This document shows positions 2,891 through 36,100 of a DNA stretch of 64,000 nt, piece after piece. This DNA is from Mobula hypostoma. Lineage: Eukaryota. Made by a program: the position numbers and the translations under genes. The notes beneath the pieces are model-generated. The model was not told where the DNA came from. It saw only the letters and a list, made by a program, of their open reading frames with translations, and did not search any database. Location: the NCBI RefSeq assembly GCF_963921235.1, contig NC_086108.1, positions 33,482,001-33,546,000 on the forward strand, read 5' to 3'. Every line of letters begins with the position of its first letter. Positions within the stretch are counted from its first letter, which is position 1.

Positions 2891-3502
2891 CTAAGTGGGT
2901 AACAGGTAACTGGATACCTGAGTATAACTATCATGAGGAAGTTGGAAGGAGCACCTAGCCACACAGAGTTCAGTCTCTTTACCCCTCCCTTGCCTTCACA
3001 ACTTCCACCAGGATAGCCCACTTCCTCTTAACTTACATGAACCAGCTGACCTGGGCAGTGAAGCCACCAGACTGCACTGTCACACCGCACTTGATGCAAA
3101 ACGGCAAGCAGCCAAATGATACAATCCTGATTGCTTCAGATTCCGCCACCTAGTAAATGGTTTGGTACACCTACCTTCTGTTATGTAATATTGACCCTGA
3201 AACCTATTTCTCATCCCGAGAAGAAGTAATTTGTTAATAAATGTCACTATCTGTCATTTCATTTATTATTGTTAAATTACTCATAGTCTTGCAATAAAGC
3301 TTGAAGGGTATGATTTATGGCAAATACACAGCATTCAGCACAACAGCAGAATTTTTAAGATATTTCTGTTGAAATAATTTTATTCCTCAAAGCATTTAAA
3401 TACGTTGAAGTTACTTTAATCAATGTTTGCCAGTTCTAAACTTGCTGACAATTCTTCATCTCTCTCAAGATTCTTTTCATTCAAAAAGATATTCCTGACT
3501 AT

Positions 3503-4165
3503 GAACAACACACACGAAATGCTGGAAGAAGCATCGATGAGAAGGAATAAACTGTCGATGATTTGGGCTGAAACCCTTCATCAGGACTGGAAAGGAAGGG
3601 GGAAGAAGCCAAAATAAGAATGTTGGGGGGGAGGGGGAGGGGGAAGGAGGGCAAGCTAGAGGGTGATAGGTGAAGACAGGTGGGTGGGGGAAGAGAGGTT
3701 GAAGTAAGAAGCTTGGAGGTGATAGGTGGAAAAGATAAAGGGCTGGAGAAGAAAGAGAGTGGAGCATGGGAGAAAGGAAAGAGGAGGAGCACCATGGAGG
3801 TGATAGACAGGTGAGGAGATGAGGTAAGAGGGGAACCAGAGTGCAGGATTAAAGAAGAGGGAAAAGGAGGGTGAAGATGACCAGAAATAGGAGAAAACCT
3901 TATTCTGGGAACGAATGTGGTGGAGGTGAAGGAACTGAGAAAAGGGAATGGTATTTTCACAGGAGACAGGGTGGGAAAAGGTATAGCAAAGATTGCTGTG
4001 AGAGTCAGTAGGTTCATAAAAGATACCAGTAGACAGTTTGTCCCCAGATATCAAGGAAAGTGTCTGAAATGGACCAAGTGAACTTAAGGGTAGGGTGGAA
4101 GTTGGAGACGAAACTAATGAAATTGACGAGGTTGGCATGATGAAGGAAGCAGCACCAATGTGTTA
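3503..4165 (-). mobile_element. Penelope-like element fragment (internally deleted, decayed)
   Basis: The peptide FYEPTDSHSNLCYTFSHPVSCENTIPFSQF matches the PLE at 10817-13625. It has the same purine-rich 3' region and a degenerate hammerhead near 3553-3590. Confidence 0.85.
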
Positions 4166-5069
4166 TCCTTGTCTGTGGCTCATTGAAGGTTAAATGTTGA
4201 GCACAATGCCTGGGATAATTCTTCACCACAATTTTTTTCAAATAATTTGCTGTATTTGTGTCCAGCTGAGAGAACAGACAAGAAGACCTTGATGTAATTT
4301 ACTACCCAAAATTTGTAACTTCCACAAATGCACAATTCCTTTGGTACTGCACGGTAGAGCAGTGTGGATATTTGTGTTCAAGCAGATCAGAAGCCCAAGA
4401 CCTCCAAGCCAAGGAGTGAGAGAGTGACACCACTGAGCTATAGGGGATACTTCAAGGGGGAACGGGACTTGAATGGACCAAACAGGTTAGAAAACCAACA
4501 TGTCCAAAGGTCTAAGCCCAAGTTACTTACTCAGTTATAACTCCATGGGTCAGCCTTGATGCCACAATTTTACTTCCTGACATTTACTAACTCAAGTGAT
4601 TTGCTGGTTAATTTGATCTGAAACAATTTTAGTTCACTCAAAGAGACATTTTAGTGCCAAAAATCTTACTGCGCTTTTCGTGTACAAACTGGAATGTCAC
4701 ATTGGAGGCTGGAATTTCACAATGGGACAAAATGACATGAAATGAAGGTTAGGTTTATAAGATTAGCTTTAATTGTCACATATACAGTAGAGTGCCCAAT
4801 ACTTTTGCACCATACAGTAGTAATTTTATGTATTGCACTGTACTGCTGCTGCAAAAAAAATCAAAATAAACTTCATGACATAGGCGAGTGATGATAACCC
4901 CCCTGACCCTGGCACTTCTTCTTTGCCATCTGTCCCACACCCCTCCCATGGCACTCCACCTTCGCCATTCCTAACATCCTTTGTTCCCACCAGATTTACA
5001 AACACGCTCACAAATACAGCACTGTGCAGAAGTCTTATGCACCGTTGCTCTCTCTCTCTCTATATATAT

Positions 5070-6020
5070 AGACCATAAGACCATAAGACAAAGGAGCAGA
5101 AGTCGGCCATTCAGCCCATCGAGTCTGCTCTGCCATTTTATCATGAGATGATCCATTCTCCCATTTAGTCCCACTCCCCTTCTCACCATAACCTTTGATG
5201 CCCTGGCTACTCAGATACCTATCAATCTCTGCCTTAAATACACCCAATGACTTGGCCTCCACTGCTGCCTGTGGCAACAAATTCCAAAGATTCACCACCC
5301 TCTGACAAAAAAAATTTCTTCGCATTTCTGTTCTGAATGGGTGCCCTTCAATCCTTAAGTCATGCCCTCTCGCACTAGAATTCCCCCATCATGGGAAACA
5401 TCTTTGCCACATCCACTCTGTCCATGCCTTTCAACATTCGAAATGTTTCTATGAGGTCTCCCCTCATTCTTCTAAACTCCAAGGAATACAGTCCAAGAGT
5501 GGACAAACGTTCCTCATATGTTAACCCTCTCATTCCCGGAATCATTCTAGTGAATCTTCTCTGTACCCTCTCCAACGTCAGCACATCTTTTCTTAAATAA
5601 GGAGACCAAAACTGCCCACAGTACTCCAAGTGAGGTCTCACCAGCGCCTTATAGAGCCTCAACATCACATCCCTGCTTCTATACTCTATTCCTCTAGAAA
5701 TGAATGCCAACATTGCATTCGTCTTCTTCACTACTGACTCAACCTGGAAGTTATCTTTAAGGGTATCCTGCACGAGGACTCCCAAGTCCCGTTGTATCTC
5801 AGAACTTTGAATTCTTTCCCCATTTAAATAATAGTCTGCCCATTTATTTTTTCTGCCAAAGTGCATAACCATACACTTTCCAACATTGTACTTCATTTGC
5901 CACTTCTCTGCCCACTCTTCCAATCTATCCGTCTCTCTACAGACTCTCTGTTTCCTCAGCACTACCGGCCCCTCCACCTATCTTCGTATAGTCAGCAAAC
6001 TTAGCCACAAAGCCATCTAT
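5070..6020 (-). mobile_element. CR1 LINE 3' part
   Basis: ORF 5375-5977 (WAEKWQMKYNVGKC..LYKALVRPHLEYC..RGDLIE) and ORF 5035-5325, ending in a short tandem-repeat tail near 5070. Confidence 0.92.
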
Positions 6021-6044
6021 TCCACGTCAGCGAACTTAGCCACA

Positions 6045-7790
6045 AAGCCATATAGATGGCAAATGCAATCTCAAAGGCTCTTCACATGGTCTTAGACCAC
6101 ATAAACACTTACGAGAGATGATTGATAAGTTTGTGGCCTAAGGTAGAAGGAGTCAATTTTAGAAAACGTAGCACATTTATTTTTCAACATAGTCCCCTCC
6201 TACATTAACACACTTAGTCCAGCGGTCGTGGAGCATACGGATCTTGGACCTCCAGAAAATGCCCACAGCGGTGATTGATAAGTTCGTGGCCTAAGGTAGA
6301 AGGAGATGAATTATTAACTTCAAACTTTCTGCATAATCACTGAAAGAGTTGAACTGCATGTGCGTGTAACGAGAGCTGTATAACTCATTTCCTTCTACCA
6401 TAGGCCACAAACTTATCAACCACCTATCTGTGGACACTTTCTGGAGGTCCAAGATCTGTATGTTCCACGACTGCTGGACTAAGTGTGTAAATGTAGGAGA
6501 GGACTATGTTGAAAAATAAATGTGCTAGGTTTTCTAAAATTAACTCTTTCTACCTTAGGCCACGAACTTATCAATCACCCCTTGTATGTCAGGATGCTGT
6601 TCATCGCCTATAGTTCAGCATTTAACACTATCATTCACACAATCCTGATTGAGAAGTTACAGAATCTGGGCCTCCGTATCTCCCTCTGCAATTGTATCCT
6701 CGACTTCATAACCGGACAAACACAATCTGTGTGGATTGGTGATAACATATCCTCCTCGCTGACGATCATCACTGGTGCAACTCGGGTGTGTGCTTTGCCC
6801 ACTGTTCTGCTCTCTGTATACACATGACTGTGTGGCTAGGCATAGTTCAAATATCATCTATAGATTTACTGATGATGCAACCATTGTTGGTAGAATCTCA
6901 GATGGAGACGAGAGGGCGTACAGGAGCGAGATATACCAAATGATGGAGTGATGCCACAGCAACAAGCTGGCACTCAACGTCAGTAAGACGAAAGAGCTGA
7001 TTGTGGACTTCAGGAAGGGTAAGAGGAAGGAACCATACCAATCCTCATAGAGGGATCAGAAGTGGAGAAAGTGAGTAGTTTCAATTTCCTAGGTGTCAAG
7101 ATTTCTGAGGACCTAACCTGATCCCAATATATCGATGCAGTAATAAAGGCAAGACAGCGACTATAATTCATTAGGAGTTTGAAGAGATTTGGTATGTCAA
7201 CAAATATAATCAAAAATTTCTATAGATGTACCATGGAGAGCATTCTGACAGGCTGCATTACTGTCTGGTATGGAGGGGCTACTGCACAGGACTGAAATAA
7301 GCTGCAGAGGGTTGCAAGTTTAGTCATCGGCTCCATCTGGGGTACTAGCCTACAAATTACCCAGGACATCTTCAGGAAGCAGTGTCTCAGGAAGGCAGTG
7401 TCCATTATTAAGGACCTCCAGCACCCAGGACATGCCCTTTTCTCACTGTTATCATCAGGTAGGAGGTACAGAAGCCTGAAGGCACACACTCAGCGACTCA
7501 GGAACAGCTTCTTCCCCTCTGCCATCCGTTTCCTAAATGGACATTGAACCCGTGAACATTACCTCACTTTTTTAATATACAATTTATTTCTGTTTTTTGC
7601 ATGATTTTAATCTATTCAATATACATATACAGTAAATTGATTTACTTATTTATTTACTATTATTATATTTTTTCTCTTCCTCGTCTTCTTTTTCTTCTTC
7701 TTCTATATTATGTATTGCATTGAACTGCTGCTGCTAAGTTAACAAATTTCATGACACATGCCAGTGATGATAGACCTGATTCTGATATAT
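6045..7790 (+). mobile_element. Rex1/Babar-type LINE RT 3' part, interrupted by a MITE
   Basis: RT motif [16 protein letters not shown] and downstream Rex-type C-terminal sequence, with a gattctga tail near 7778. Removing 6112-6586 restores the N-T-Y-V-R-M reading. Confidence 0.85.
6112..6584. mobile_element. Tc1/mariner-type palindromic MITE
   Basis: TA dinucleotides at 6110-6111 and 6585-6586. ~200-bp inverted arms begin cgagagatgattgataagtttgtggcctaaggtagaa and end ttctaccttaggccacgaacttatcaatcaccccttg. No ORF. Confidence 0.9.
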
Positions 7791-7989
7791 GTACCTATAC
7801 ATATTTACAATGGAAGATACAGGGCTGTTCTGTGTCAATGACGAACACAGTCTGACGATTACTCTGGGCCTAGCCTGCTAGATCCACCACACTTCCAGCA
7901 TCAACATAGCATGCCCACAACTCACTAACCCTATCGGTACATCTCAGGACTGTGGGAGGGTAATGAAGCACCTGGAGGAAACCTATGAG

Positions 7990-8954
7990 TGTCATAAGGG
8001 AGTGGCTGGGAACGGACACAAGTGCAAGACACAGACACTGAAGTACTAGGGACAGGACTAGGATACAGGGTGAGGGTTAGGACATGGACACGAAAACCAG
8101 GAACCCGGAACAGGACTGGACAAGAGAGCTAGGAGCCCGGGCTTGGACTCCGAGCCAGAGACTGGACAAGGACCCAGAACCTGGGTCTTGCCTCTGGCTC
8201 AGACCCCAGAACTAGACAAGGACGTGACTTGGCTGGCAGGCAGGACGAGGCTGGAGATCAGAGACTCAAGGCGAGTCTGGAGACCAGAGACTCGAGGCGA
8301 GGCTGGAGACCAGAGACTCGAGGTGAGGCTGGAGACCAGAGACTCGAGGTGAGGCTGGAGACCAGAGACTCGAGGCTTGGGGTCTTGAAGATCCTGTTGG
8401 GCAGGGCACGGTACTCCACCCAATGGAGGCAAGGGACAGAACCGACTGCAGGGTAATGGCAATACGGCCTCGCTTACCCGACAGAGGCAACGGACAGGAA
8501 GGGACAGAACCAACTGTAGGTAACGGCAAGATGGCCTGGCTTACCTGGCAGAGGCAAAGGACAGGAAGGGAGCTGGGTACAGGGTGGCTCCAGGACAAGA
8601 CTGCAGGCGAGACGAGGCGAGAGTTACCAGCAAGACAAGGCAAGGCTTCAGGCAATGCAAGGTGAGACAAGAACTTCAGGTGAGGCGAGAGTTACCGGCA
8701 AGACAAGGCAAGGCAAGGCTTCAGGTGAGGAAACAGAAGACAGGGGAAGGGATACAAGGAGTAAGGACAAGAACAATTCAGCAGCCACACCCTGGTTTCT
8801 GGAGATATTTTATGCGGCCAGCCCCAACGAGAAGCAGCTGCCTCAATTAGTGCTCAAACAGGAACAGAAACAGGGTAGACAGGAAAACCTGGAGCAAGGG
8901 TCAATGGACCGAACCGTGAACCGGAATACGGACTTCACAGACCGGACCATGTCA
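7990..8954 (-). mobile_element. Solo LTR of an LTR retrotransposon
   Basis: TG...CA termini (tgtcat...atgtca) and a perfect 5-bp TSD ATGAG at 7985-7989 and 8955-8959. Its reverse complement start is homologous to the LTR starting at 31540. Confidence 0.9.
8248..8377 (+). repeat. 26-bp tandem repeat (5 units) inside the solo LTR
   Basis: Unit gaggctggagaccagagactcgaggy, repeated five times. Confidence 0.9.
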
Positions 8955-9664
8955 ATGAGATAGTGGGGAGTATGTATAGACTCCTTACAGACAGGGGTGG
9001 GAATCAAACTCTTATCAATGATCACCGGTGCTGTAAAGCAATTGCACTAAACTCTATTCTATCGTGCTACCCCAGATTAGTAATCAATCTAGCCTGTAGT
9101 TCTGAAATAGAAAGGTTTTAACACTTTTAACGACTTATCATGTGCCACCAATATATTCTTGTTCCTCAGAAGATTTCACTTGGCCAATTTATTTTTTGGA
9201 TGATGAGCCAGGAATTCATCTGTTCAGCGATCTGTCCTCCAGTCGAAGATTGCCTTTGAAATCCGAATCCGTGAAGAGGTGTAGTTTTGCAGAGAGCTGT
9301 AGTTCAAAGTTCAAAGTAAGTACATGGAGAATTGTGATCACTTTGGTGCAGGCTGCTCAAAAAGGTTTTTCAATTTAGAGTGGCTGGAGCACTGCAGGCC
9401 AGAAAGACACAAAATTTCCTGGGTCCTACATTGCAGGAGGCAGTTAGCCCAATCACAGAAACATAGATCATTGGTATAAAGAGATGAGGAATGGGAGATG
9501 CCTACATTTCTTGAGGTGCAATGGGAGAGGTGCTTCTGGAATGAGGAGATTAATTGTTCATGTGAGAATGAACGACCAAGCAAAAAGGTAGCATGCAAAT
9601 CCTGCATTGCCACTCTCAGGGGATGTGAGTAATTTATATAAAAAAAACAGAAGTTTAAACATCA

Positions 9665-10816
9665 AAACATGGTATATCAAGTCTGCTCCAACATCCAATC
9701 ATGTCTGATTTATTATCCCTCTCAACCTTATTCTCCCACCTTTGCCCCATAAGCTTTTGATGCCCTACTAATCAAGAACCTATTAAACTCCACTTTAAAT
9801 ATTCCTAATAACTTGTCTCCAGAGCAATGAATCCACAGGTTCATCACCTTCTGGCTAAAGAAGTTCCTTCTCATCTCTGTTCTAAAACACATCCTTCTAT
9901 TCTCAGGCTATGCCCTCTGGTCCTAGCTTCCCCCACTATAGGGAACATCCTCTGCATGTCCACTCTACCTAGGCCTTTCAATGTTCAATAGGCTTCAAAG
10001 AGATCCTCCTTCATTCTACTAAACTCCAATAAGTACAGGATCAGAGCCATCAAATACTCCTCTTACATTAACCTTTTCATTCCTAGATCATACCTGTGAA
10101 CCTCTCCGGACCCTCTCCAGTGCTAGCACATCCTTTCTTAGAAAAAGGGCCCAGAATTGCTCACAATACTACAAGTAGGGTCTGACCAATGCCTTATAAA
10201 GTCTCAGCATTACTCCTTGTTTTACATTCTCTGCATCCTGAAATGAATGTCAACATTGCATTTGCCCTCATTACTATCGAGGTAACCTGTAAATTAAACT
10301 TGAGAGAATCCTGCACAAAGACTCCCAAGTCCCTTTCAACGTCTAGTCTCAAGGATTTTCTGCCCAATTATAAAATAGTCTATGCCTTTACTCCTTCTAT
10401 CAAAGTGCATGATCATATACTTCCCTACACTATTTTCCATCTACCACTTCTTTGCCCATTCTCCTAATCTTTCTAAGCCCTTCTGCAAACATCCTGCTTC
10501 CTCAACACTACCTGCCCCTCCACATATCTTTATATTGTCTGTAAACTTGGTCACAAAGCCATCCATTCTGTCCTCCAAATAATTGACATATGATGTGAAA
10601 ACAAGCAGTCCCTACACCAAACCCTGAGGAACATCACTAGTCACTGGTAGCCAACCAGAAAAGGCCCCCTTTATTCACTCTTTGCCACCTGCCAGTCAGC
10701 CAATCTTCTATCCATGCTAGTTTCTGCTCTGTAATACCATGGGCTCTAGTTTAGCAGCCTCATCTGCAGCACCTTGTCAAAAGCCTTCTGAAAATCCATG
10801 TAAACAACAACCACTG
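9665..10816 (-). mobile_element. CR1 LINE, 3' part (continues at 13626-15260)
   Basis: Decayed CR1 RT and 3' UTR on the minus strand. The sequence resumes seamlessly after the PLE insertion. Confidence 0.85.
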
Positions 10817-13625
10817 AAAACAACAGGAATTCTGCAGATGCTGGAAATTCAAGCAACACACATCAAAGTTGCTGGTGAACGCAGCAGGCCAGGCAGCATC
10901 TCTAGGAAGAGGTGCAGTCGACGTTTCAGGCCGAGACCCTTCGTCAGGACTAACTGAAGGAAGAGCTAGTAAGAGATTTGAAAGTGGGAGGGGGAGGGGG
11001 AGATCAAAAATGATAGGAGAAGACAGGAGGGGGAGGGATGGAGCCAAGAGCTGGACAGGTGATTGGCAAAGGGGATATGAGAGGATCATGGGACAGGAGG
11101 TCTGGGGAGAAAGACAGTGGGGGGGGGAACCCAGAGGATGGGCAAGGGGTATAGTCAGAGGGACAGAGGGAGAAAAAGGAGAGTAAGAGAAAGAATGTGT
11201 GTATAAAAATAAATAACAGATGGGTTACGAGGGGGAGGTGGGGCATTAGCGGAAGTTAGAGAAGTCGATGTTCATGCCATCAGGTTGGAGGCTACCCAGA
11301 CGGAATATAAGGTGTTGTTCCCCCAACCTGAGTGTGGCTTCATCTTTACAGTAGAGGAGGCCGTGGATAGACATGTCAGAAAGGGAATGGGATGTGAAAT
11401 TAAAATGTGTGGCCACTGGGAGATCCTGCTTTCTCTGGCGGACAGAGTGTAGGTGTTCAGCAAAGCAGTCTCCCAGTCTGCGTCGGGTCTCGCCAATATA
11501 TAGAAGGCCACATCGGGAGCACCGGACGCAGTATATCACTCCAGCCGACTCACAGGTGAAGTGTCGCCTCACCTGGAAGGACTGTTTGGGGCCCTGAATG
11601 GTGGTAAGGAAGGAAGTGTAAGGGCATGTGTAGCACTTGTTCCGCTTACAAGGATAAGTGCCAGGAGGGAGATCAGTGGGGAGGGATGAGGGGGACGAAT
11701 GGACAAGGGAGTCGCGTAGGGAGCGATCCCTGCGGAAAGCAGAGAGAGGGGGGAGGGAAAGATGTGCTTAGTGGTGGGATCCCGTTGGAGGTGGCGGAAG
11801 TTACGGAGAATAATATGTTGGACCTGGAGGCTGGTGGGGTGGTAGGTGAGGATCAGGGGAACCCTATTCCTGGTGGGGTGGCGGGAGGATGGAGTGAGAG
11901 CAGATGTACGTGAAATGGGGGAGATGCATTTGAGAGCAGAGTTGATAGTGGAGGAAGGGAAGCCCCTTTCTTCCCTCGTCCTGGAATGAAAAGCCTCATC
12001 CTGAGAGCAGATGCGGCGGAGACGGAGGAATTGCGAGAAGGGGATGGCATTTTTGCAAGAGACAGGGTGAGAAGAGGAATAGTCCAGATAGCTGTGAGAG
12101 TCAGTAGGCTTATAGTAGACATCAGTGGATAAGTTGTCTCCAGAGACAGAGACAGAAAGATCTAGAAAGGGGAGGGAGGTGTCGGAAATGGACCAGGTAA
12201 ACTTGAGGGCAGGGTGAAAGTTGGAGGCAAAGTTAATAAAGTCAACGAGTTCTGCATGCGTGCAGGAAGCAGCGCCAATGCAGTCGTCGATGTAGCGAAG
12301 AAAAAGTGGGGGACAGATACCAGAATAGGCTTGGAACATGGATTGTTCCACAAAGCCAACAAAAAGGCAGGCATAGCTAGGACCCATACGGGTGCCCATA
12401 GCTACACCTCTAGTTTGGAGGAAGTGGGAGGAGCCAAAGGAGAAATTATTAAGAGTAAGGACTAATTCCGCTAGACGGAGCAGAGTGGTGGTAGAGGGGG
12501 ACTGATTAGGTCTGGAATCCAAAAAGAAGCGGAGAGCTTTGAGACCTTCCTGATGGGAAATGGAAGTATATAGGGACTGGACATCCATGGTGAAAATAAA
12601 GCGGTGGGGGCCAGGGAACTTAAAATCATCGAAAAGTTTAAGAGTGTGAGAAGTGTCACGAACATAGGTCGGAAGGGATTGAACAAGGGGGGATAAAATC
12701 GTGTCGAGGTATGCAGAAACGAGTTCGGTAGGGCAGGAGCAAGCTGAGACAATAGGTCTGCCAGGACAGGCAGGCGTGTGGATCTTGGGTAGGAGGTAGA
12801 AACGGGAAGTGCGAGGTGGGGGAGCTATAAGGTTGGTAGCAGTGGATGGGAGATCCCCTGAGCGGATAAAGTCGGTGATGGTGTGGGAGACAATGGCCTG
12901 GTGCTCCTTAGTGGGGTCACGATCGAGGGGTAAATAAGAGGAGGTATCCACGAGTTGTCGCTGTGCCTCGGCAAGGTAGAGGTCAGTACGCCAGACTACA
13001 ACAGCACCCCCCTTATCGGCGGGTTTAATAATAAGGTTAGGATTAGTGCGGAGGGAGTGGAGAGCAGAGCGTTCCAAGGAGTGAGGTTGGAATGGGGACA
13101 AGGTGCGGTGAAGTTGAGACGGTTGATATCCCATTGGCAGTTAGCGATAAAGAGATCCAGAGCAGGCAGAAGACCAGAGCGGGGTGTCCATGAAGAAGAG
13201 GAGGGTTGAAGACGGGAGAAGGGGTCATCGGTGGGGGTGGAAGAGTCCTTGCCGAAGAAGTAGGCTCGGAGACGGAGACGGCAGAAGAAGAGTTCCGCAT
13301 CGTGGAAAACACGGAACTCGCTGAGGTGTGGGCGAAGGGGGACAAAGGTGAGGCCCTTACTGAGGACAGAGCATTCTGCCTCCAACAGTTAAAGGTCTGA
13401 GGAGATGGTAAAAACCCGGCACGGATGAGAGCTGGGATCAGAGGGGGGAGGGGAGAGGCTGGGGGTGTCAATGGAGAGGGGAGGGTTGGGGTGAGAGGAA
13501 GATGGAGCCTCTGAGGACCGAGGAGCTGACGATGGGATCTGAAGGAGACGGGATTGCAGAGTATTGGTGGGGGAAGGGGAGACGGGAGTCACAATAGCAG
13601 CACATAAAGACCCGGCCTGGAGTTT
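10817..13625 (-). mobile_element. Penelope-like retroelement (Neptune-type): RT, Cys-rich linker and GIY-YIG endonuclease; frameshifted, 5'-truncated
   Basis: ORF 11569-13134 has PLE RT motifs (IIKPADKGGAVVV, FYLLPKIH, GRPIVS, MDVQSLYTSI, GVAMGTRMGP, RYIDD). ORF 11246-11572 has GVIYCVRCSRCGLLYIGET. The linker PCKRNKCYTC lies near 11625-11660. Direct repeat CCACTG at 10811-10816 and 13626-13631. Confidence 0.95.
10916..10951 (-). ncRNA. Minimal type-I hammerhead ribozyme motif in the PLE 3' terminal repeat
   Basis: Minus strand reads AGTC-CTGACGA-AGGGTCTCGGCCT-GAAAC-GTC^GACT. Core boxes are intact, stem I is AGTC/GACT, stem II is short, and stem III is the palindrome ACGT. Predicted cut between 10920 and 10919. 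Confidence 0.8.
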
Positions 13626-15260
13626 CCACTGACTTTCCTTTGTCTATCCTGCCTGATGTTCACTCAAAGAATTCCAACAGAATTGTTAGGCAAAATTTTT
13701 CCTTAAGGAAACCATGCTAACTTTGGCCTATTTTATCATGTGTCTCCAAGTACCCCGAAATCTCACCCCTAATAATGGTCTCCAACATCTACCAAACCAT
13801 TGAAGTCAGGCTAACTGGCCTATAATGTCTTTTCTTCTGCCTCTCTCCCTTTGTAAAGAGTGGAGAGACATTTGCAATTTTCCAGTCCTCTGGAGCCTAC
13901 CAGAATCTTGTGATTCTTCACTACAAATACCTCACAATCCAAGCACCTTATCCCTAGTAATAGCAACTACACACAATACTGGACCGTGACATGCTTGAAT
14001 TTCTGGCATATTGCTGGTGTCTCTCATAGTGAAGACTGACGCAAGATTACTGAATTCATCTGCCATGTCTTTGTCACTATTACAGCCTCTCCAGCATCGT
14101 TTTCCAGCAGTGAAATATCCACTCTCAGCTCTGTTTTACTGTTTATATATCCGTGGGAAAAACTGGTATCTCATGGGCATTCTACAAATCCCTTCTCCTG
14201 GGATCCAGCACTAAGTTGATTTTCAAGTCAAGTCTATTGTCATTTAACTACATACACATATATAAAGTACATAACCACAGAATATATATAGAAACAAGAC
14301 AATGTTTCTCCAAACCCAGGTGCAAAGCACACTAGTACACATAACACACAATAACTTATGAAGGTAAGGATAAAATCTACAGATGAATCACACATAAATA
14401 ACAAACTAAAATGCATTAATATTAAATATTGTAAGGTATGGAACAAGTTAACCAGTGACACTTCGAATACGATACGGCAGGGAGTTCAGGAGCCTAATGG
14501 CCTGGGGGAAGAAGTTGTTTCTCATCCTGACCATTCTTGATTTTATGCATCATAGTCTCCTGCCTGGTGGTAGAAAGTCAGAGAGGATGCTGGATGGATG
14601 GGTGGGGTCTTTAATAATACTAAGGGCCCTGTGTACACAGCAGTCTTGATAAATGTCCCTGATGGATTGTAGGGAGACCCACATGATCCTCTCAGCTGTT
14701 CTCACAGTCCTTTGTAGGGACTTCTGGTCCGATGCTCGACTTCACCCATACCAGAGAGAAATGCAACTTGTCAGTTTCTCAAGTGTCCTGCATATTGAAA
14801 TCCCCAAAGACTATTGTAACATTGCCCTTTTTACACACCTCTTCTCTCCTATTTGTAGCCCACATCCTGGCTACTGGTTGGAGGCCTCTATATAACTCCT
14901 ATCAGTGTCTCTACCTTTGCAGTTTCTTAACTCTACCCACAGAGTTTCTACATCTTCTGATTCTATGTCACCTCTTTCTAAGGATTTGATTTCATTTTTT
15001 AACTAATAGAGCCACCTCACCCCGTCTGCCTACCTATATGTCCATTCAATACAATGTGCACCCTTGGTTGTTGACTTGACTTGAAAATCAAGTTGGTGCC
15101 GAATCCCAGGAAAAGGGATTTGTAGCAAGCCCACGAGATACCAAAAGTTTTTTCAGATCTCCCAACAGTTATCTTCTTTCAGCCACGACCCAGTGATGCT
15201 CACATCATACCTGCTAATCTCTAACTGCGCTATACTAGATCATCTACTTTATTCTATGCG
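13626..15260 (-). mobile_element. CR1 LINE, upstream part with deletions and nested insertions
   Basis: Antisense homology to CR1 ORF2 (RT N-part and APE region) of the copies at 24-27 kb and 45-47 kb. Confidence 0.8.
14224..14775 (-). mobile_element. Rex1/Babar-type LINE 3' fragment
   Basis: (caagt)n tail at ~14224-14235 and a Rex-type C-terminal region (aacaacttcttccccc.. on the minus strand). Confidence 0.75.
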
Positions 15261-15529: not shown

Positions 15530-17925
15530 GTATGTTTATATGTCTTATGTACGTCGAGACCTACAGTGAAATGCGTTGTTTATGTCGAAACAAATCAGTG
15601 AGGATTGTACTGAGCAGCCCACAAGTTTTGACAAGCTCTTGGCACCAACATAGCATACCCACCACGCAGTGACGCTAACTGTTCATCTTTGGAAAGTGCG
15701 AGGAAACCGGAGCACCCAAAGGAAACACGGGCAGTCCCGGAGCACCCAAAGGAAACACGGGCAGTCTTGGAGCACCCAACGGAAACCCAGGAAGTCCCGG
15801 AGCACCCAAAGGAAACACAGGCAGTCCCGGATCACCCAAAGGAAACACAGGCAGTCCCGGATCACCCAAAGGAAACACGGGCAGTCCCGGAGCACCCAAA
15901 GGAAACACAGGCAGTCCCGGAGCACCCAAAGGAAACACAAGCAGTCCCGGAGCACCCAAAGGAAACACAGGCAGTCCCGGAGCACCCAACGGAAACACGG
16001 GCAGTCCTGGAGCACCCAAAGGAAACACAGGCAGTCCCGGAGCACCCAATAGAAACACAGGCAGTCCTGGAGCACCCAACGGAAACACGGGCAGTCCCGG
16101 AGCACCCAACGGAAACACGGGCAGTCCCGGAGCACCTAAAGGAAACATGGGCAGTCCCGGAGCACCCAAAGGAAACACGGGCAGTCCCGGAGCACCCAAC
16201 GGAAACACGGGCAGTCCCGGATCACCCAAAGGAAACACAGGCAGTCCCGGAGCACCCAAAGGAAACACGGGCAGTCCCGGAGCACCCAAAGGAAACACGG
16301 GCAGTCTTGGAGCACCCAACGGAAACACAGGAAGTCCTGGAGCACCCAAAGGAAACACAGGCAGTCCCGGATCACCCAAAGGAAACACAGGCAGTCCCGG
16401 ATCACCCAAAGGAAACACGGGCAGTCCTGGAGCACCCAAAGGAAACACAGGCAGTCCCGGAGCACCCAAAGGAAACACAAGCAGTCCCGGAGCGCCCAAA
16501 GGAAACACAGGCAGTCCTGGAGCACCCAACGGAAACACGGGCAGTCCTGGAGCACCCAAAGGAAACACAGGCAGTCCCGGAGCACCCAATGGAAACACGG
16601 GCAGTCCCGGAGCACCCAAAGGAAACACGGGCAGTCCCGGATCACCCAAAGGAAACACGGGCAGTCCCGGAGCACCCAAAGGAAACACAGGCAGTCCCGG
16701 ATCACCCAAAGGAAACATGGGCAGTCCCGGAGCACCCAAAGGAAACACAAGCAGTCCCGGAGCACCCAAAGGAAACACAGGCAGTCCCGGAGCACCCAAT
16801 AGAAACACAGGCAGTCCCTGAGCACCCAATGGAAACACGGGCAGTCCCGGAGCACCCAAAGGAAACACAGGCAGTCCCGGATCACCCAAAGGAAACATGG
16901 GCAGTCCCGGAGCACCCAAAGGAAACACAAGCAGTCCCGGAGCACCCAAAGGAAACACAGGCAGTCCCGGAGCACCCAATAGAAACACAGGCAGTCCCTG
17001 AGCACCCAATGGAAACACGGGCAGTCCCTGAGCACCCAACGGAAACACAGGAAGTCCCGGAGCACCCAAAGGAAACACAGGCAGTCCCGGAGCACCCAAC
17101 GGAAACACGGGCAGTCCTGGAGCACCCAAAGGAAACACAGGCAGTCCCGGAGCACCCAGCAGAAACACAGGCAGTCCCTGTGCACCCAACGGAAACACGG
17201 GCAGTCCCGGATCACCCAATGGAAACACGGGCAGTCCCGGAGCACCCAATAGAAACACAGGCAGTCCCTGAGCACCCAACGGAAACACGGGCAGTCCCGG
17301 AGCACCCAAAGGAAACACGGGCAGTCCCGGAGCACCCAAAGGAAACACAAGCAGTCCCGGAGCACCCAAAGGAAACACAGGAAGTCCCGGAGCACCCAAC
17401 AGAAACACGGGCAGTCCCGGATCACCCAATGGAAACACGGGCAGTCCCGGAGCACCCAATAGAAACACAGGCAGTCCCTGAGCACCCAACAGAAACACGG
17501 GCAGTCCCGGATCACCCAATGGAAACACGGGCAGTCCGGAGCACCCAAAGGAAACACGGGCAGTCCCGGATCACCCAAAGGAAACACAGGCAGTCCCGGA
17601 GCACCCAATGGAAACACAGGCAGTCCCGGATCACCCAATAGAAACACAGGAAGTCCCGGATCACCCAAAGGAAACACGGGCAGTCCTGGAGCACCCAAAG
17701 GAAACACAGGCAGTCCCGGATCACCCAAAGGAAACACAGGCAGTCCCGGAGCACTCAACGGAAACATGGGCAGTCCCGGATCACCCAACGGAAACACGGG
17801 CAGTCCCGGAGCACCCAAAGGAAACACAGGCAGTCCCAAGGACACAGACTCTTTACAAACAGCAGTGGGAATTGAACCTGATCTCATAGCTGACTCTGTA
17901 AAACATTAGGCTAACTGCCACACTT
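15530..17925 (-). mobile_element. tRNA-type SINE hosting a minisatellite expansion
   Basis: B-box GGTTCAATTCCC on the minus strand at 17867-17878. SINE body flanks the array on both sides (ggcaccaacatagcataccc..gaggaaaccggagcaccc / cagactctttacaaacagcag). Confidence 0.8.
15708..17837 (+). repeat. 30-bp minisatellite, about 71 units
   Basis: Consensus ggaaacacRggcagtcccggaKcacccaaH, directly visible. One 29-bp unit occurs near 17537. Confidence 0.98.
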
Positions 17926-22970: not shown

Positions 22971-23059
22971 ATGGAGGAAGAAGCAGAGATAAGGTTGGTA
23001 ACATTTCATTTGGAATCCTTGGCTGATGAGTGTAAACATCAATATGCAGTAAATCATTA

Positions 23060-23870
23060 ACATGAGAAAGTCTGCAGATGTCTGAAATCCAAAGCAACAC
23101 ATACAAAATGCTGAAGGAGCTCAGCATGTCAGGCAGCATCTACGGAAATGAATAAACAGTCGATGTTCTTCTTCAGGACTGGAAAGGAAGGGGAAAAGGC
23201 CAGAATAGAAAGGTGGGAGGAGGGGAAAGGGGAATAGCTGAGAAGGTGATAGGTGAAACCAGGTGGGTGTGAAAGGTAAAGAGCTGAAGATGAAGGAATC
23301 TGATAGGAGAGGAGGGTGGATCATGGGAGAAAGGGAAGGAGGAGAGGACGCAGGGGTAACTGATGGGCAGGTAAGAAGAGATAAAAGGCCAGAGTGAGAA
23401 ACAGAAGAAGAGGGGAGAGGGAAGGACGTTTTTTTAATTGAAGGAGAAATCAATATTCATGCCATCAGGTTAGAGGCTACCCAGATGGAATATAGGGTGT
23501 TGCTCCTCCACGCTGAGGGTGGCCTCATCTTGGCACAAGAGGAGGCCGTGGACCGACATGTTGAAACCAGAATGGGAAACGTTTGGCCGCTGGGAAGTTC
23601 CACTTTTGGTGGATGGAGTGGAGGTGCTGTATGAAGCAATTCCCCTATTTTTGATGAGTCTCACCATTGTAGTGGAGGTTGCATCGGGAGCATCGGACAA
23701 TAGATGATCCCAAAAGATTTGCAGCTGAAGTGTTGCCTTCACTGGAAGGACAGTTTAGGCTCTGAATGGAAGTGAGGAAGGAGGTGAAGGGGCAGGTGTA
23801 GGACTTGGCTATTTGCAGGTATAAGTACCTGGGGGAGGGATGAATGGACAGGGAAGGAAGAGGAAAGGGG
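23060..23870 (-). mobile_element. Penelope-like element 3' fragment (GIY-YIG region and terminal repeat)
   Basis: Homologous to 10820-11720 (CSRCNLHYNGET, EATLSVEEQH). The hammerhead near 23157-23180 has lost stem II. Confidence 0.85.
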
Positions 23871-26800: not shown

Positions 26801-27660
26801 CCTGGGAGTCCTTGTGCAGGACTCCCTAAAGGTTAATTTGCAGATTGAGTCTGTGGTGAGGAAGGTAAATACAAACGATGTACAACGTTAGCATTCATTT
26901 CAAGAGGAGTGGAACATAAAAGCAAGGATGTAATGTTGAGACGAGGAACTCTGCAGATGCTGGAAATTCAAGCAACACACACACAGAATGCTGGTGAACG
27001 CAGCAGGCCAGGTAGCATCTATAGGAAGAGGTACAGTCGAAGTTTCGGGTCGTGTGTGTGTTGATGTGATGTTGAGACTTTATTAAGCACTGGTGAAGCC
27101 TCATTTGGAGTATTGTGGGTGGGTTTGGGACTCTTATCTTAGAAAGGATGTGCTGAAACAAGAGAAAGTTCAAAAGAGGCTCACGAAAATGATTCCAGGA
27201 TTGAATGGCTTGTCATATGAAGAGCGTTTGATGGCTCCAGGCCTGTATTCACCATAATTCAGAAGAATGAGGTGTGACCTCATTGAAACTTATCAAATGG
27301 TGAAAGTCCTTGATAGAGTGGATGTGGAGAGGACATTTCCTTTGGTTGGAGAGTCTAAGACCAGAGGACCCCACCTCAGAATAGAGGAGTGTCCTTTTAG
27401 AACGGAGATGAGGTGGAATTTGTTTAGCCAGAGAGTGGTGAATCTGTGGAATTCCTCACCACCGGCGGCTGTGGAGGCCAACACTTTATGTATATTTAAG
27501 GCAGAGTTTGACAGATTCTCGATTGGTCAGGGCATGACGGAATACAGGGAGAAGACAGGAGACTGGGGCTGAGAGAAAAATTGGATCAGCCATGGTGAAA
27601 TAGCGGAGCAGACTCGATGGGCCAAAAGGCCTAATTCTGCTCCAATATCTTCTGGTCTTA
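23870..27660 (+). mobile_element. Near full-length decayed CR1 LINE (ORF1 esterase part, APE, RT)
   Basis: ORF1-like MICCLLGTRAREIS.., APE start YLNARSIQNKVDE, RT fragments in ORFs 25341-27572, and a 3' UTR. Confidence 0.92.
26943..27062 (-). mobile_element. Short PLE terminal insertion inside CR1
   Basis: Matches 10825-10933. Flanked by a 16-bp duplication gatgtRatgttgagac at 26927-26942 and 27063-27078. Confidence 0.85.
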
Positions 27661-28765
27661 TGGAGGAAGCGATCCCCGCGGAAAGCTGGGGGGTGGGCGG
27701 CTGCGGGCATTCGGGAAATTGAGGAGTTGTGGGCGAGGGCAGCATCAATGGTGGAGGAAGGGAAACCCCATTCGTTAGAGAGGAAAGACCACTCTGAAAT
27801 CCTGGAAGGGAAAGCCGCATTCTGGGAAATGATGCGGCGGAGACGAAGGAACTGAGAAAAGGAAGTAGCATTTTTACAGGAGGCAGGGTGGGAAGCGGTG
27901 CTGTATAGTCAAGATTACCGTGGGCATTGGTAGGTTTATGAACGATGTCGCTTCACAGTTTGCCTCTGGAGATGGAGACAGAGCGATCAAGAAAGGGGAG
28001 GGAGATGTCAGAAATTGTCCAAGTGAATTTAAGGGCAGGGTGGAAGTTAGAGGCAAAGTTGACGAAATTGCCGTGCTCAGCCTGAGTGCATATGCAGCCC
28101 CAATGCGGTCGTCAGTATCAGAGAAACAGATGGGGAGTACTCCTGGGGAGGACTTCGAACATGGACTGTTCTACTAGCCAGCCAAAAGGCAGGCATAGCT
28201 GGGCCCATGCGGGTGCCATGACTACCCCTCAAGTCTGGAGAAAGTGGGAGGAGCTGAAGAAAAAACTGTTGAGTGCGAGAACCAGTTCTGCCAGACAGAG
28301 GAGGGCGGTGGTGGAGGGGAATTGGTTGGTTCTTTTGTTAGGAAAGAAGCGGAGCGCTTTAAGGCCTTCTTGATGAGGGATTGAAGAGTATAGGGACTGA
28401 ATATCCATGAAGAAAATCAGGCGGTTAGGGGCAGGGAATTGAAAGTTACTGAGGAGATCCTGTCCCGGATGAAGGTGTGAAGGGACTTAACGAAGGGTGA
28501 TAGAATGGAATGGAGGTATAGGACACGAGTTCAATGGAGCAGGAGCTGGCAGAGATAATAGGCCTACCGGTCAGCCCGGCTTGTGGATCTTGCACTGCAA
28601 GTAGAAGCGAGCAGTACGGGATAAGGGAACTATGAGCTTGGTGACTATGTGAGTTCTCCAGAGTTGATGATGTCGGAGACAGTCTTGTGATGGTCCGGGG
28701 AGGGGGGTGTCTTCTTCAGAGGAGGTGTCCGAGAGTTGCTGCCTGCCCGCAGCAAGGTATAAGTC
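27660..28765 (-). mobile_element. Penelope-like element RT fragment, decayed
   Basis: Colinear with 11720-12985 (PCD..FSQFLRLRRI, MAPAWAQ/GVVMAP, KIHK motifs on the minus strand). Confidence 0.85.
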
Positions 28766-28779
28766 AGTGCGACATCTAC

Positions 28780-29152
28780 CTTGCTGAGAGACGTAGTTGC
28801 TGGACTTCTCCTTTAAGACGGTCGTTACATTTAGGACGTCACAAATGCGTTGACTGGCAACTGCGTTGATATTAGATCAAAGGCTTCATCGCGGTTAGCG
28901 GCTCATTGGCCAACGCTTCTTAACTTTCAGGTTGATCTCTGTCAGCAGGTTAGCCCTTGCGCTGTATATTGGTACGAAGCAATTTCTGCCTTCAGTCATG
29001 GCTAGTTAATTGTTGCAATGGATTGAGGTCTCCGCCTAATCAAACTTTTTTAAACATATGTATATGCATATTAAAATATCAGATTTAATATTGCACCTAT
29101 ATATATATATATATTAACAATGGAGTTACGGTTTGGATAACATCTTATCAAC
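28780..29152 (+). promoter_or_regulatory. Candidate proximal promoter / 5' UTR of the LRRC52-like gene
   Basis: Non-repeat, locally CpG-retaining segment just upstream of the ATG. It has CRE-like gacgtca (28835-28841), X-box-like gttgactggcaac (28849-28861) and an inverted CCAAT (attgg) near 28905. Motif matches only. Confidence 0.35.
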
Positions 29153-29771
29153 ATGTTCCTTTATCGTAGAGAGCCGCAGGGACTGCTATGGAAATTGCTG
29201 TTAGTGGGAGTGACATTGGCTGCTGATTGTCCATCTATGTGTATATGCGAACCTTTCAAGGTAACCTGCAAAGGCAAAGGTTTAAATGCTTTTCCAGAAA
29301 GCCTTCCATTAAACACCAGGCATCTTGACCTCTCAGACAACAGTATCTCCGAAATCAATTCTCTGGAACTCAATCTGCTCGTTGATCTGGTGCACCTGGA
29401 TTGTAGCCACAATGCAATATCGGAGATTTCAAAACTGGATTTCCTCTCTGGCATAAAGCTAGTTTATTTAGATTTCAGTTACAATGCCTTGAAACAAATC
29501 GGCTCGACGACATTGGAAAGTTTAACTAACCTGATCGTGCTGAAGGTCAGTAATAACAAGATAAGCGAAGTGCAGCGGGGCGCCTTTGAAACAAACATTG
29601 GACTTCGGCTGCTTGATCTCAGAAACAATAATCTGACATTTTTTAACGTTTCGTTAATACGAGGTCTTCAAGGACTGAAATCCGTGTATTTGTCTGGTAA
29701 TCCCTGGGATTGTCAATGCACGATTAAACTGCTGAGTCAGTGGTTAAAGGAAAGCAAAGTTACTTTTCCAG
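29153..29771 (+). CDS. LRRC52: LRRC52-like BK/Slo gamma auxiliary subunit, coding exon 1 (signal peptide, LRRNT, LRRs, start of LRRCT)
   Basis: Hydrophobic leader, then CPSMCICEPFKVTC, repeated LxxLDLSxNxI motifs and LSGNPWDCQC. Splice donor CCAG|GTGAGG at 29771/29772 (phase 1). Confidence 0.88.
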
Positions 29772-31539
29772 GTGAGGTTCAGTCTCAAAATCTGTATCAT
29801 TATCTGTGTTTATACAATTTTGGAGAGATTGTAAGTTATCTGTTGTGTGCTGACTTCAAGGTTAACAGTTGCAAGACTGAATTAGCAGAGACTGAGAAAT
29901 CTAAATACTTGAATTAAAATTATGAAGAGAATCAAAATGTGTAAAAATAAGTAGTTAAAAAGCTGGTTCTTCCTGGATTTTACCTTAGAACAGGTCAAAG
30001 TGTAATTGATTGAATTGACAGATTTGTTTTCATCATGAAAGAAGTAAACAAAAAGTGGCAGCAAAGTCCGAAGTTTTATCCTTCCAATGAAATGGAGAAT
30101 GGGCTTGTTTGGTTCTGATGAAGAATCTTAGAAAAAAAGTGTACTCTCTCTTTCAGATGCAGACTGACATTTATGCTGCAAATATTGCACATTTCCCAAT
30201 TTTGCACAACAATTAAGAAATGGAACTGAGCAAATCAAACACTCCCCCCCCAAAAAAAACTGGGTTTAAACAAGTTTGTAAAAATAAATGAGCGTTTCAA
30301 TTTGCATGGAATTTCAGCTAGATTAGGATCTCATCAGATAGGAAGGGGGAATATGAGATGCATTCTACAAAAAATGTGGCAGAAATGGTTAGAATGAATT
30401 AGGAAGAAATGCATAGGCATGGGCAATCTGGTGCAAAATATGGACTCACAAGAGACTGCAATTCTGAAATATGCAGCAACACACAAAATGCTGGAGGAAC
30501 TCAATGGGAGGGAAATGGGCAGTAGATGTTTGAGGTTAAGATCAAAGGTCCGTTTTCCTCCATAGATGCTGCCTGAGCTTCTGAGTTTCTCCAGTGCTTT
30601 GTGAGGTGCATCATATGGCATTTTGGCACTGAGTAGTAAACCACAAGGCTAATAAAATGCTAAGCAAGATAACTACAGTAAATCAATGTCAAAGAATCTT
30701 CAAAGAGCATTGTGGAAGTTTTAGCTTGCATCCAGTTCTGCGTACTGAATGCAAAGCTAGAAAGAAGAGATTGTATCAAGCTATGGAAGCATCCAGAGAA
30801 GAGTAACAATATAATTTCCAATTTCAGATCTGTATTAGGCTTCCTATCTTAGAAAGCTAATCTCCGAATGACCTTTAGAGCTGTATAGAGAAATACATGG
30901 CAGGAAATAACACTTTGAGGTGCAATTTCTAATCAATTGTATAGCTCATATTGAGAAGTTCTTCAGCCAAAGTGGTGTAGTGTAGGCTTGGAGAGGGGGT
31001 GGAGCATGTGAAAATAATGGTTGGTGCATTATAAAGATTTATAATAATATTATTTAAGGTGATTAGCACACCTTTTATCATCTTTGTCCCTTTGCAGAAT
31101 AATGGTCCAGATATGGCTTTGGGAACTGTTGATGTAGATATTTCCTAAACCTTTTCCTATGCATACCTGAGCAGAATTGCTTCATTGTAAAAGCATTTTT
31201 AAAAAGCTTCCAATTTTTATGTGTTTCAATAGTTTTGCTGTCTTGCTTTACTTTATAAAAGGTAGACTTGTAACTTAATTGTAAACTTCACTGTTAAGTT
31301 CTACTTTAACCTTCCTTATTTCCTTCTATTTAAGTTAAGATTTATGTTATCGTATCATTGAATTTTGTGACAATTATTAAAATGTCTATTTTCAAATCTC
31401 GACTTTAATGCAAAAACTTTAATTTTACAAATATATGTTTGGTATAAGCTTCATACAGAAATAGACTATTTTAAAATTTAGTAATATTCTTGGTTAATTA
31501 ATAAAAATAACCATCACCCTATGTAAAAGATCGTAAACC

Positions 31540-33127: not shown

Positions 33128-36100
33128 ATGGAGATTGAGGAATTTCTAAAGGCGCCAACCTTGGAGGCATTAGAGGATGCCAGGAAATCAAAATTGTCAA
33201 CTGCGGCCAAACGGTTGAATTTTTTTAAGGGGAAGTCGACAATGGTGCCAGGGTCCGGAATATTTCTGATCGTGTTCAAGATATCCTGAAGTGGGAGGGT
33301 GAGGAGCCAGAGGTCGTGGTACATATAGGTACTAATGACATAGGTAGGAAAAGGGAAGAGGTCCTGAAAGGAGAAAATAGGGAGCTAGGAAGGGAGTTGA
33401 GAAAAAGGACCGCAAAGGTAGTAATCTCGGGATTACTGCCTGTGCCATGCGGCAGTGAGAGTAGGAATGCGATGAGGTGGAGGATAAATGCGTGGCTGAG
33501 GGATTGGAGCAGGAGGCAGGGATTCAAGTTTTTGGATCATTGGGACCTCTTTTGGCGCAGGCGTGACCTGTACAAAAAGGACGGATTACACTTGAATCCT
33601 AGGGGGACCAATATCCTGGCAGGGAGATTAGTGAGGGCTACTGAGGTGACTTTAAACTAGAATGGTTGGGGGGTGGGAATCAAATTAAAGAGGATCAACG
33701 TGAGGAGGTTAGTTCACAATAGGGGGATGGGAACCAGTGCAGAGAGACAGAGGGGTGTAAAGTGAGGGTCGAAGCAAAAAGTAGTAAGGAGAAAAGTAAA
33801 AGTGGCAGGCCGACAAATCCAGGGCAAGCATCAAAAGGGGCCACTTTTCAACATAATTGTGTAAGGGCTAAGAGAGTTGTAAAAGAGCGCCTGAAGGCTT
33901 GTGTGTCAATGCAAGGAGCATTCGTAACAAGGTGGATGAATTGAAAGTGCAGATTGTTATTAATGATTATGATATAGTTGGGATCACAGAGACATGGCTC
34001 CAGGGTGACCAAGGATGGGAGCTCAATGTTCAGGGATATTCAATAGTCAGGAGGGATAGACATGAAAGAAAAGGAGGTGGGGTGGCGTTGCTGGTTAAAG
34101 ATGAGATTAACACAATAGAAAGGAAGGACATAAGCCGGGAAGATGTGGAATCGATATGGGTAGAGCTGCGTAACACTAAGGGGCAGAAAACGCTGGTGGG
34201 AGTTGTGTACAGGCCACCTAACAGTAGTAGTGAGGTCGGAGATGGTATTAAACAGGAAATTAGAAATGTGTGCAATAAAGGAACAGCAGTTATGATGGGT
34301 GATTTCAATCTACATGTAGATTGGGTGAACCAAATTGGTAAAGGTGCTGAGGAAGAGGATTTCTTGGAATGTATGCAGGATGGTTTTTTGAACCAACATG
34401 TCGGGGAACCAACTAGAGAGCAGGCTATTCTAGACTGGGTTTTGAGCAATGAGGAAGGGTTAATTAGCAATCTTGTCGTGAGAGGCCCCTTGGGTAAGAG
34501 TGACCATAATATGGTGGAATTCTTCATTCAGATGGAGAGTGCATAGTTAATTCAGAAACAAAGGTTCTGAACTTAAAGAGGGGTAACTTTGAAGGTATGA
34601 GTCGTGAATTAGCTAAGATAGACTGGCAAATGACACTTAAAGGATTGACGGTGGATATGCAATGGCAAGCATTTAAAGATTGCATGGATGAACTACAACA
34701 ATTGTTCATCCCAGTTTGGCAAAAGAATAAATCAAGAAAGGTAGTGCACCCGTGGCTGACAAGAGAAATCAATTCCAAAGAAGAAGCATACAAATTAACC
34801 AGGAAAATTGGCTCACCTGAGGACTGGGAGAGATTCAGAGTTCAGCAGAGGAGGACAAAGGGCTTAATTAGGAAGGGGAAAAAAGATTATGAGAGAAAAC
34901 TGGCAGGGAACATAAAAACTGACTGTAAAAGCTTTTATAGATATGTAAAAAGGAAAAGACTGGTAAAGACAAATGTAGGTCCCCTACAGACAGAAACAGG
35001 TGAATTGATTATGGGGAGCAAGGACATGGCAGACCAGTTGAATAATTACTTTGGTTCTGTCTTCACTAAGGAGGACATAAATAATCTTCCAGAAATAGTA
35101 GGGGACAGAGGGTCCAGTGAGATGGAGGAACTGAGCGAAATACATGTTAGTAGGGAAGTGGTGTTAGGTAAATTGAAGGGATTAAAGGCAGATAAATCCC
35201 CAGGGCCAGATGGTCTGCATCCCAGAGTGCTTAAGGAAGTAGCCCAAGAAATAGTGGATGCATTAGTGATAATTTTTCAAAACTCGTTAGATTCTGGACT
35301 GGTTCCTGAGGATTGGAGGGTGGCTAATGTAACCCCACTTTTTAAAAAAGGAGGGAGAGAGAAACCAGGGAATTATAGATCGGTTAGCCTAACGTCGGTG
35401 GTGGGGAAACTGCTGGAGTCAGTTATCAAAGATGTGATAACAGCACATTTGGAAAGCGGTGAAATCATCGGACAAAGTCAGCATGGATTTGTGAAAGGAA
35501 AATCATGTCTGACGAATCGCATAGAATTTTTTGAGGATGTAACTACTAGAGTGGATTGGGGAGAACCAGTGGATGTGGTATATTTGGATTTTCAAAAGGC
35601 TTTTGACAAGGTCCCACACAGGAGATTAGTGTGCAAACTTAAAGCACAGGGTATTGGGGGTAAGGTATTGATGTGGATAGAGAATTGGTTAGCAGACAGG
35701 AAGCAAAGAGTGGGAATAAACGGGACCTTTTCAGAATGTCAGGCAGTGACTAGTGGGGTACCGCAAGGCTCAGTGCTGGGACCCCAGTTGTTTACAATAT
35801 ATATTAATGACTTGGATGAGGGAATTAAATGCAGCATCTCCAAGTTTGCGGATGACACGAAGCTGTGTGGCAGTGTTAGCTGTGAGGAGGATGCTAAGAG
35901 GATGCAGGGTGACTTGGATAGGTTGGGTGAGTGGGCAAATTCATGGCAGATGCAATTTAATGTAGATAAATGTGAAGTTATCCACTTTGGTGGCAAAAGT
36001 AGGAAAACAGATTATTATCTGAATTATCTGAATCCTATTAGGAAAAGGGGAGGTGCAACAAGACCTGGGTGTCATTATACACCAGTCATTGAAAGTGGGC

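What the first reader, a model, noticed from the sequence alone, without database searches (positions are those of the whole stretch)
10916..10951. Intact minimal hammerhead ribozyme in the terminal repeat of a Neptune-type Penelope element
Seen: on the element's sense strand the 3' region reads AGUC-CUGACGA-AGGGUCUCGGCCU-GAAAC-GUC^GACU. It has the full catalytic core, stem I, a short stem II, and a loop-less palindromic stem III (ACGU). Known: PLEs carry minimal hammerheads that are thought to cleave as dimers through such palindromes. Inference: this young, CpG-rich copy may still yield self-cleaving RNA.
Basis: partly seen in the sequence, partly recalled or inferred. Interest (0 to 1): 0.7.

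Follow-up and report, generated by a model that had tools for sequence, protein, structure and literature searches.

The report
Ordinary Penelope hammerhead in dead copy
This 36-base motif matches the already described minimal hammerhead ribozyme that Penelope-type jumping genes carry in their end repeat; here it sits in a broken, front-truncated copy, one of over 40,000 matching copies in the genome, which likely makes no self-cutting RNA of its own.

Summary
The motif is real (minus strand, 10951-10916) and fits the published minimal hammerhead of Penelope-like element (PLE) end repeats. It lies 300 nt behind the stop codon of an RT plus GIY-YIG element carrying the Neptune/Nematis cysteine linker. 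It is not special: 41,740 genomic places match a 34-mer of it.
Across three subfamilies the motif is conserved (33-35 of 36) while upstream flanks turn over, but without compensatory changes. One older subfamily spread to thousands of copies with an A6C core change. Copy ends mostly record uncut RNA: 0 of 92 start at the cut site. A genome-wide twofold excess there consists mainly of microhomology inversion junctions. No usable RNA reads were available. Verdict: new member of a known kind, low interest.

The parts
10916..10951 (-). Minimal type-I hammerhead motif: stem I 10951-10948 with 10919-10916; core C3-A9 10947-10941; bulged A 10940; stem II 10939-10936 with 10931-10928 (G-U closing pair, 4-nt loop); G12-A15.1 10927-10924; palindromic 15.2/16.2 10923-10922; predicted cut 10920^10919
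10818..11245 (-). 3' untranslated end / single pseudo-LTR of the PLE: pyrimidine-rich tract, hammerhead, conserved downstream block
10818..10851 (-). Optional 'tail': family copies end either near 10818 or near 10851-10856
   Evidence: tail concept from PMC8557442 and PMC11167929
11246..11767 (-). Endonuclease part of the broken ORF: CX4CX2C linker, GIY-YIG-like motif, CCHH residues; stop codon at 11248-11246
   Evidence: (PF01541 weak, E 0.094)
11569..13140 (-). Reverse transcriptase part of the broken ORF; 18-nt deletion near 11973; frameshifts near 11754 and 13076
   Evidence: (RVT_1 E 4.3e-05)
13041..13624 (-). N-terminal remnant of the ORF; the copy is 5'-truncated at about 13624 and lacks about 690 nt (with the likely start codon) plus the upstream repeat
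10811..10817 (-). 7-bp target-site duplication, 3' copy, inside an older LINE fragment
13626..13632 (-). 7-bp target-site duplication, 5' copy

Best explanation
The motif is the minimal hammerhead of a Penelope-like retrotransposon's end repeat, carried here by a 5'-truncated, frameshifted copy that is likely inert. In a full-length repeat-ORF-repeat element the transcript would hold two hammerheads about 3.5 kb apart. Each lacks its own helix III, so two would have to pair through the 4-nt palindrome, likely helped by the element's protein, to cut slowly after the GUC triplet and trim tandem transcripts. Reverse transcription likely starts at the tail about 70-100 nt downstream and mostly runs through an uncut hammerhead. 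Shown: sequence, position, copy number, truncation, broken ORF, where copy ends fall. Inferred: folding, dimer, protein help, cutting, silence of this copy.
For: Architecture matches the published consensus, including the base between A9 and 10.1 and the palindromic 15.2-16.2 pair; the coral Neptune example has the same layout, and G-U at 10.1-11.1 occurs in several listed motifs. Descriptor chance: 0 of 200. Family members with two hammerheads in direct repeats exist, e.g. L132 at 1390 and 4903; 5 of 20 long loci have an upstream repeat. Majority motifs of three subfamilies agree at 33-35 of 36 positions against 5-12 of 25 upstream. This copy: one hammerhead, truncated, two 1-nt deletions and an 18-nt deletion. 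The monomer pairs G5-C17, A6-U16.1, C7-G16.2 and G8-C15.2 with probability 0.96-0.98; with 91-183 nt of context stem I has probability 0.0; the drawn active dimer scores -9.5 against -28.3 kcal/mol for the best dimer fold. 88 of 92 young copies extend 5' of the cut site. Literature: weak cutting as dimer or trimer, none as monomer (PMC4209133); protein-assisted cutting that is dispensable for insertion in vitro, and no RNA-seq ends at the cut (PMC11167929).
Against: No compensatory base change in stems I or II: at most 1 two-sided change per pair in 114 copies; the 9 at the CG palindrome are CpG decay. The 24 nt downstream are as conserved as the motif (22-23 of 24), so conservation does not single out catalysis. 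Folding energies ignore the core's non-standard contacts and would disfavour many true hammerheads. Transcription of this locus was not tested; read-through from a host transcript and pairing with another copy's RNA are not excluded. Pattern counts show about twice as many sense arms starting at the cut as at two control offsets (552 against 294 and 195).
Confidence: 0.8

Rival explanations
1. In this lineage the motif is kept mainly as a structural signal rather than a catalyst: it would mark the edge of a short RNA template or make the reverse transcriptase stall and switch strands, producing the many short and inverted end-repeat copies.
For: An older subfamily has C at core position 6 (14 of 23 copies; 6,680 genome-wide non-A6 matches, 78 C, 13 G, 9 T among the first 100 listed, counted by eye). 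A6C lowers Mg-dependent cutting strongly in other hammerheads. The youngest subfamily fixed a weaker G-U closing pair (27 of 27 copies with the linked marker; hairpin -2.3 against -3.9 kcal/mol). 25 of 88 copies break within 10922-10960, 0.73 per 100 nt against 0.09-0.17 upstream of 11000, and 16 of the 25 are inversion junctions. Catalytic mutants did not affect insertion in the anole element.
Against: The oldest and youngest subfamilies keep all core bases (A6 in 28 of 31 and 59 of 60). A6C hammerheads still cut slowly, better with Mn. Breakpoint density is also raised at 10961-11000 (0.40), and truncation generally favours short copies. Both arms of inverted pairs were counted, so events are not independent.
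Confidence: 0.3
2. This copy, or the family at large, yields RNA that cuts itself in cells, by read-through transcription and pairing in trans among tens of thousands of identical motifs.
For: All core bases are intact here, as in 34 of 63 young copies with core and stems complete. Start-at-cut pattern count is about twice the controls; 4 of 30 inspected are plain junctions against 3 of 21 and 1 of 19 for the controls.
Against: 22 of the 30 are inversion junctions and 4 are deletions or tandem joins, many explained by 3-4 nt microhomology. 0 of 92 copies selected without regard to the motif start within 10914-10921; about 2 would be expected in a 5-nt window, so this shows no pile-up, not depletion. 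Predicted misfolding. No upstream repeat in this copy.
Confidence: 0.12
3. Chance resemblance to a hammerhead.
For: No Rfam match; folding z-score near zero; no covariation.
Against: 0 of 200 random windows fit the descriptor; position and layout are those published for PLEs.
Confidence: 0.02

Closest known systems
Minimal hammerheads (min-HHR) of metazoan PLE pseudo-LTRs, incl. Neptune, Xena and Poseidon of fishes and the Acropora Neptune motif (Cervera and De la Pena 2014, PMC4209133)
   Same: Type-I topology, full core, extra base after A9, short stem I, no helix III loop, palindromic 15.2-16.2, U-rich upstream flank, place in the end repeat, mostly single motifs from truncated copies.
   Different: Stem II is at the short end (4 bp) and closes with G-U in the youngest subfamily. 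Copy number is higher than the 4,000-9,000 reported for coelacanth and Xenopus. No cartilaginous fish is in the paper's Table S1 or Figure S3 lists that I read.
Poseidon element of Anolis carolinensis, PAc (Frangieh et al. 2024, PMC11167929)
   Same: Hammerhead in the end repeat, two alternative 3' ends about 33 nt apart (tail), no clear sign of copies or RNAs starting at the cut.
   Different: Other PLE clade; there the ORF starts inside the hammerhead, here the likely start codon lies about 140 nt downstream of the cut. Activity was measured there, not here.
Neptune clade of EN+ PLEs (Craig et al. 2021, PMC8557442)
   Same: RT followed by a C-terminal GIY-YIG endonuclease, CX2-5CxxC linker, CCHH residues, inverted 5'-truncated partners, 30-40 bp tail.
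   Different: The linker is shared with Nematis; no tree with named references was built.
Animal non-LTR retrozymes (bioRxiv 10.64898/2026.07.22.740005)
   Same: Type-I hammerheads related to PLE end repeats; reported from one chondrichthyan genome.
   Different: Retrozymes are non-coding tandem units; this motif is attached to a coding PLE and is single.

Membership tests
PLE minimal hammerhead | Core CUGANGA ... GAAA ... NUH | tested here: met
PLE minimal hammerhead | Extra base between A9 and 10.1, then helix II | tested here: met
PLE minimal hammerhead | G10.1-C11.1 closing pair (over 80% consensus) | tested here: inconclusive
   G-U here and in 42 of 63 young copies; G-C in 20 of 63 and in most depth of three related organisms' runs; G-U also occurs in published motifs
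PLE minimal hammerhead | Palindromic 15.2-16.2, no helix III loop | tested here: met
PLE minimal hammerhead | Located in the flanking direct repeats of a PLE | tested here: met
   family copies with two repeats and two motifs; this copy keeps only the 3' one
PLE minimal hammerhead | Covariation in the helices across families | tested here: not met
   none among 114 copies of three close subfamilies; stems are nearly invariant, so the test has little power
PLE minimal hammerhead | Self-cleavage as dimer or with protein | not testable with these tools
   no assay; no raw RNA reads offered
Neptune clade PLE | RT with C-terminal GIY-YIG endonuclease in one ORF | tested here: met
   L136 has a 1084-codon stop-free frame through both; homologs carry PF00078 and PF01541
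Neptune clade PLE | CX2-5CxxC linker before the GIY-YIG motif | tested here: met
   CX4CX2C in the translation; definition
Neptune clade PLE | RT phylogeny with named Neptune references (excludes Nematis) | not tested
   no named reference proteins among the hits
Non-LTR retrozyme | Non-coding tandem units each with a hammerhead | tested here: not met
   single motif on a coding element; no such array in the window

The most novel reading that the evidence does not exclude
In this lineage hammerhead catalysis is dispensable and the motif works as an RNA boundary or template-switch signal: one subfamily spread to thousands of copies with an A6C core, the youngest fixed a weaker closing pair and a core-trapping fold, and copy junctions crowd on the motif itself rather than at its cut site.
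Probability: 0.3. Interest if true: 0.5.

Novelty: new member of a known kind. Interest (0 to 1): 0.2.

Why it matters
The single locus matters little. The family is a large natural sample (an extrapolated half million end-repeat copies of several ages) for the open question of what PLE hammerheads do. Its record leans towards reverse transcription of uncut RNA and tolerance of a weakened core, in line with the one biochemical study of an active PLE.

Tried and rejected
Rfam: no hammerhead family hit. DNA search of the genome with the 151-nt repeat end found nothing, as very common words are skipped. RNA evidence: no RNA holder listed, only contigs of guessed type. 8 of 22 runs were laid; contigs gave no ends and no GT-AG joint among those shown (58 joints were not shown), so nothing on expression or splicing. 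The branch-point-like motif, pyrimidine tract and AG at the 5' edge of stem I resemble the D. virilis intron end; untested. Cut-site footprint, prompted by earlier scan notes: weak at best; only the first 30, 21 and 19 junctions were classified, and the TSD search there found few. In one search some 5' ends near 10951-10959 were older subfamilies diverging from the reference; one search was restricted to 92 young copies (127 older ones set aside). In one search, 34 unassigned and 3 fourth-family copies, and copies without an ungapped motif (1 of 61, 13 of 36, 23 of 54), were dropped before counting. Lunse et al. (PMC5785218) was not held; only its title was seen, in a reference list. Literature searches: (0 papers with Penelope, Neptune, shark, retrotransposon). 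Earlier-findings look-ups by sequence and by place returned nothing.

Full report
Observation. The bare core pattern occurs 4 times in the window against 1.46 expected. The full descriptor with stems and palindrome occurs once here, in 0 of 200 Markov windows, and 17 times in 864 kb of genome, always this family. Rfam has no matching model.

The element. It runs from about 13624 to 10818 on the minus strand, flanked by a 7-bp duplication, inside an older LINE fragment whose two halves are continuous in other window copies. It encodes an RT (RVT_1), then a CX4CX2C linker and a GIY-YIG-like domain. The best homolog of a long family frame is a bamboo-shark protein at 71% identity, then unnamed and invertebrate proteins at about 42-57%, so the host is likely a cartilaginous fish. 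Domain order and linker fit Neptune or Nematis (12 of 28 passages read); no tree was built.

State of this copy. Longer relatives continue about 690 nt further 5', and 5 of 20 long loci have an upstream repeat; L132 has hammerheads at 1390 and 4903. The window copy has no upstream repeat and one hammerhead. Against L136, which has a 1084-codon open frame to the natural stop, it shows 1-nt deletions near 13076 and 11754 and an 18-nt deletion near 11973. It is 2.05% (non-CpG) and 9.7% (CpG) from the majority of 18 long copies, typical of them. The family is young; this copy is dead as a transposon.

Abundance. 41,740 places match a 34-mer of the motif with one free position; 128,249 match a 20-mer just downstream. 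A profile of the downstream part finds 139 repeat ends in 864 kb, which extrapolates to roughly 560,000. The window holds other, inverted or decayed copies.

Structure. The published consensus places one base between A9 and helix II and favours G10.1-C11.1 (PMC4209133, parts 1-2 of 4 of the text and parts 1-2 of 3 of supplement 2 read; supplement 1 could not be searched). The U is a fixed subfamily change, not just decay: 42 of 63 young copies have it while the CpG partner base is changed in 3 of 63, and 27 of 27 copies with a linked marker carry it. In runs of three related organisms C dominates (57-86% of depth). The monomer is predicted to pair four core bases with the cut-site strand (probability 0.96-0.98), flanks remove stem I, and the drawn active dimer is 19 kcal/mol above the best dimer fold. 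These energies omit tertiary contacts.

Conservation. Majority motifs of the young, middle and old subfamilies (about 4, 8 and 11% diverged) agree at 33-35 of 36 positions; the 25 nt upstream agree at 5-12 and the linker after the motif at 4-8 of 14; the next 24 nt agree at 22-23. No compensatory changes were seen in 114 copies. The middle subfamily mostly has C at core position 6 (14 of 23; genome-wide 6,680 non-A6 matches, 78 of the first 100 being C). A6C is reported to slow cutting in Mg and favour Mn (PMC3088659 passages; PMC7151607 abstract and results).

What copy ends record. Among 92 young copies chosen by sequence downstream of the motif, none starts within 10914-10921 and 88 extend past the cut. 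25 of those 88 break within 10922-10960 (0.73 per 100 nt, against 0.40 in the next 40 nt and 0.09-0.17 beyond); 16 of the 25 are inversion junctions, with both arms of a pair counted. Of 30 inspected, 22 are inversions, 4 deletions or tandem joins and 4 plain; the controls gave 3 of 21 and 1 of 19 plain. A rare cut-derived class is not excluded, but uncut templates dominate.

Mechanism. Most likely, as proposed for PLEs, two motifs in a tandem transcript pair through the palindrome and cut slowly, helped by the element's protein (PMC4209133; PMC11167929, parts 1-2 of 4; PMC6765202 passages). This copy would lack both the partner and the repeat reported to carry the promoter. The main rival is that the motif now serves as a template boundary or strand-switch signal. 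Expression could not be tested.

Novelty. Hammerheads in fish Neptune elements are described, and a 2026 preprint reports PLE-derived retrozymes in one chondrichthyan (part 1 of 5 and passages; its supplements were not seen and may list this family). My searches found no description of this family's motif. It is a new member of a known kind; interest 0.2.

Noticed in passing
window 42657-42850: Head-to-head inverted pair of short end-repeat copies of the same family, joined inside the hammerhead motif (93 nt and 106 nt arms).
   Followed up: partly
window 26944-27052, 23059-23854, about 3500-4160, 27690-28771, 48829-48907: Older or truncated remnants of related PLE subfamilies with decayed hammerheads or RT pieces (about 70-90% identity).
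   Followed up: partly
G000-wide; e.g. L231-L250: Middle-aged subfamily with A6C in the hammerhead core; at least several thousand copies.
   Followed up: partly
window 10975-10950 (minus): Branch-point-like motif, pyrimidine tract and AG directly at the 5' edge of stem I; the AG is kept in all subfamilies. Resembles the intron end at helix I in D. virilis Penelope.
   Followed up: partly
L134, L135, L140, L141: A 213-nt tandem duplication in the 5' part of the ORF is shared by several long copies, marking a sub-lineage.
   Followed up: no
window 15707-17837: 30-bp minisatellite, 71 copies, 91% matches, with long stop-free frames on both strands and no Pfam hit.
   Followed up: no
window 29141-29917 (+): Host exon with a signal-peptide-like start, LRRNT and leucine-rich repeats; about 15.5 kb from the element, opposite strand. 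Gene identity not determined.
   Followed up: no
window 36819-39957 (+): LTR-retrotransposon-like coding region with SCAN domain, zinc knuckle, and integrase zinc finger upstream of RT-RNase H, an order I recall for Gmr1-like Gypsy elements.
   Followed up: no
window 33872-36252 and 60076-63062 (+): Two LINE copies with apurinic endonuclease and RT frames.
   Followed up: no
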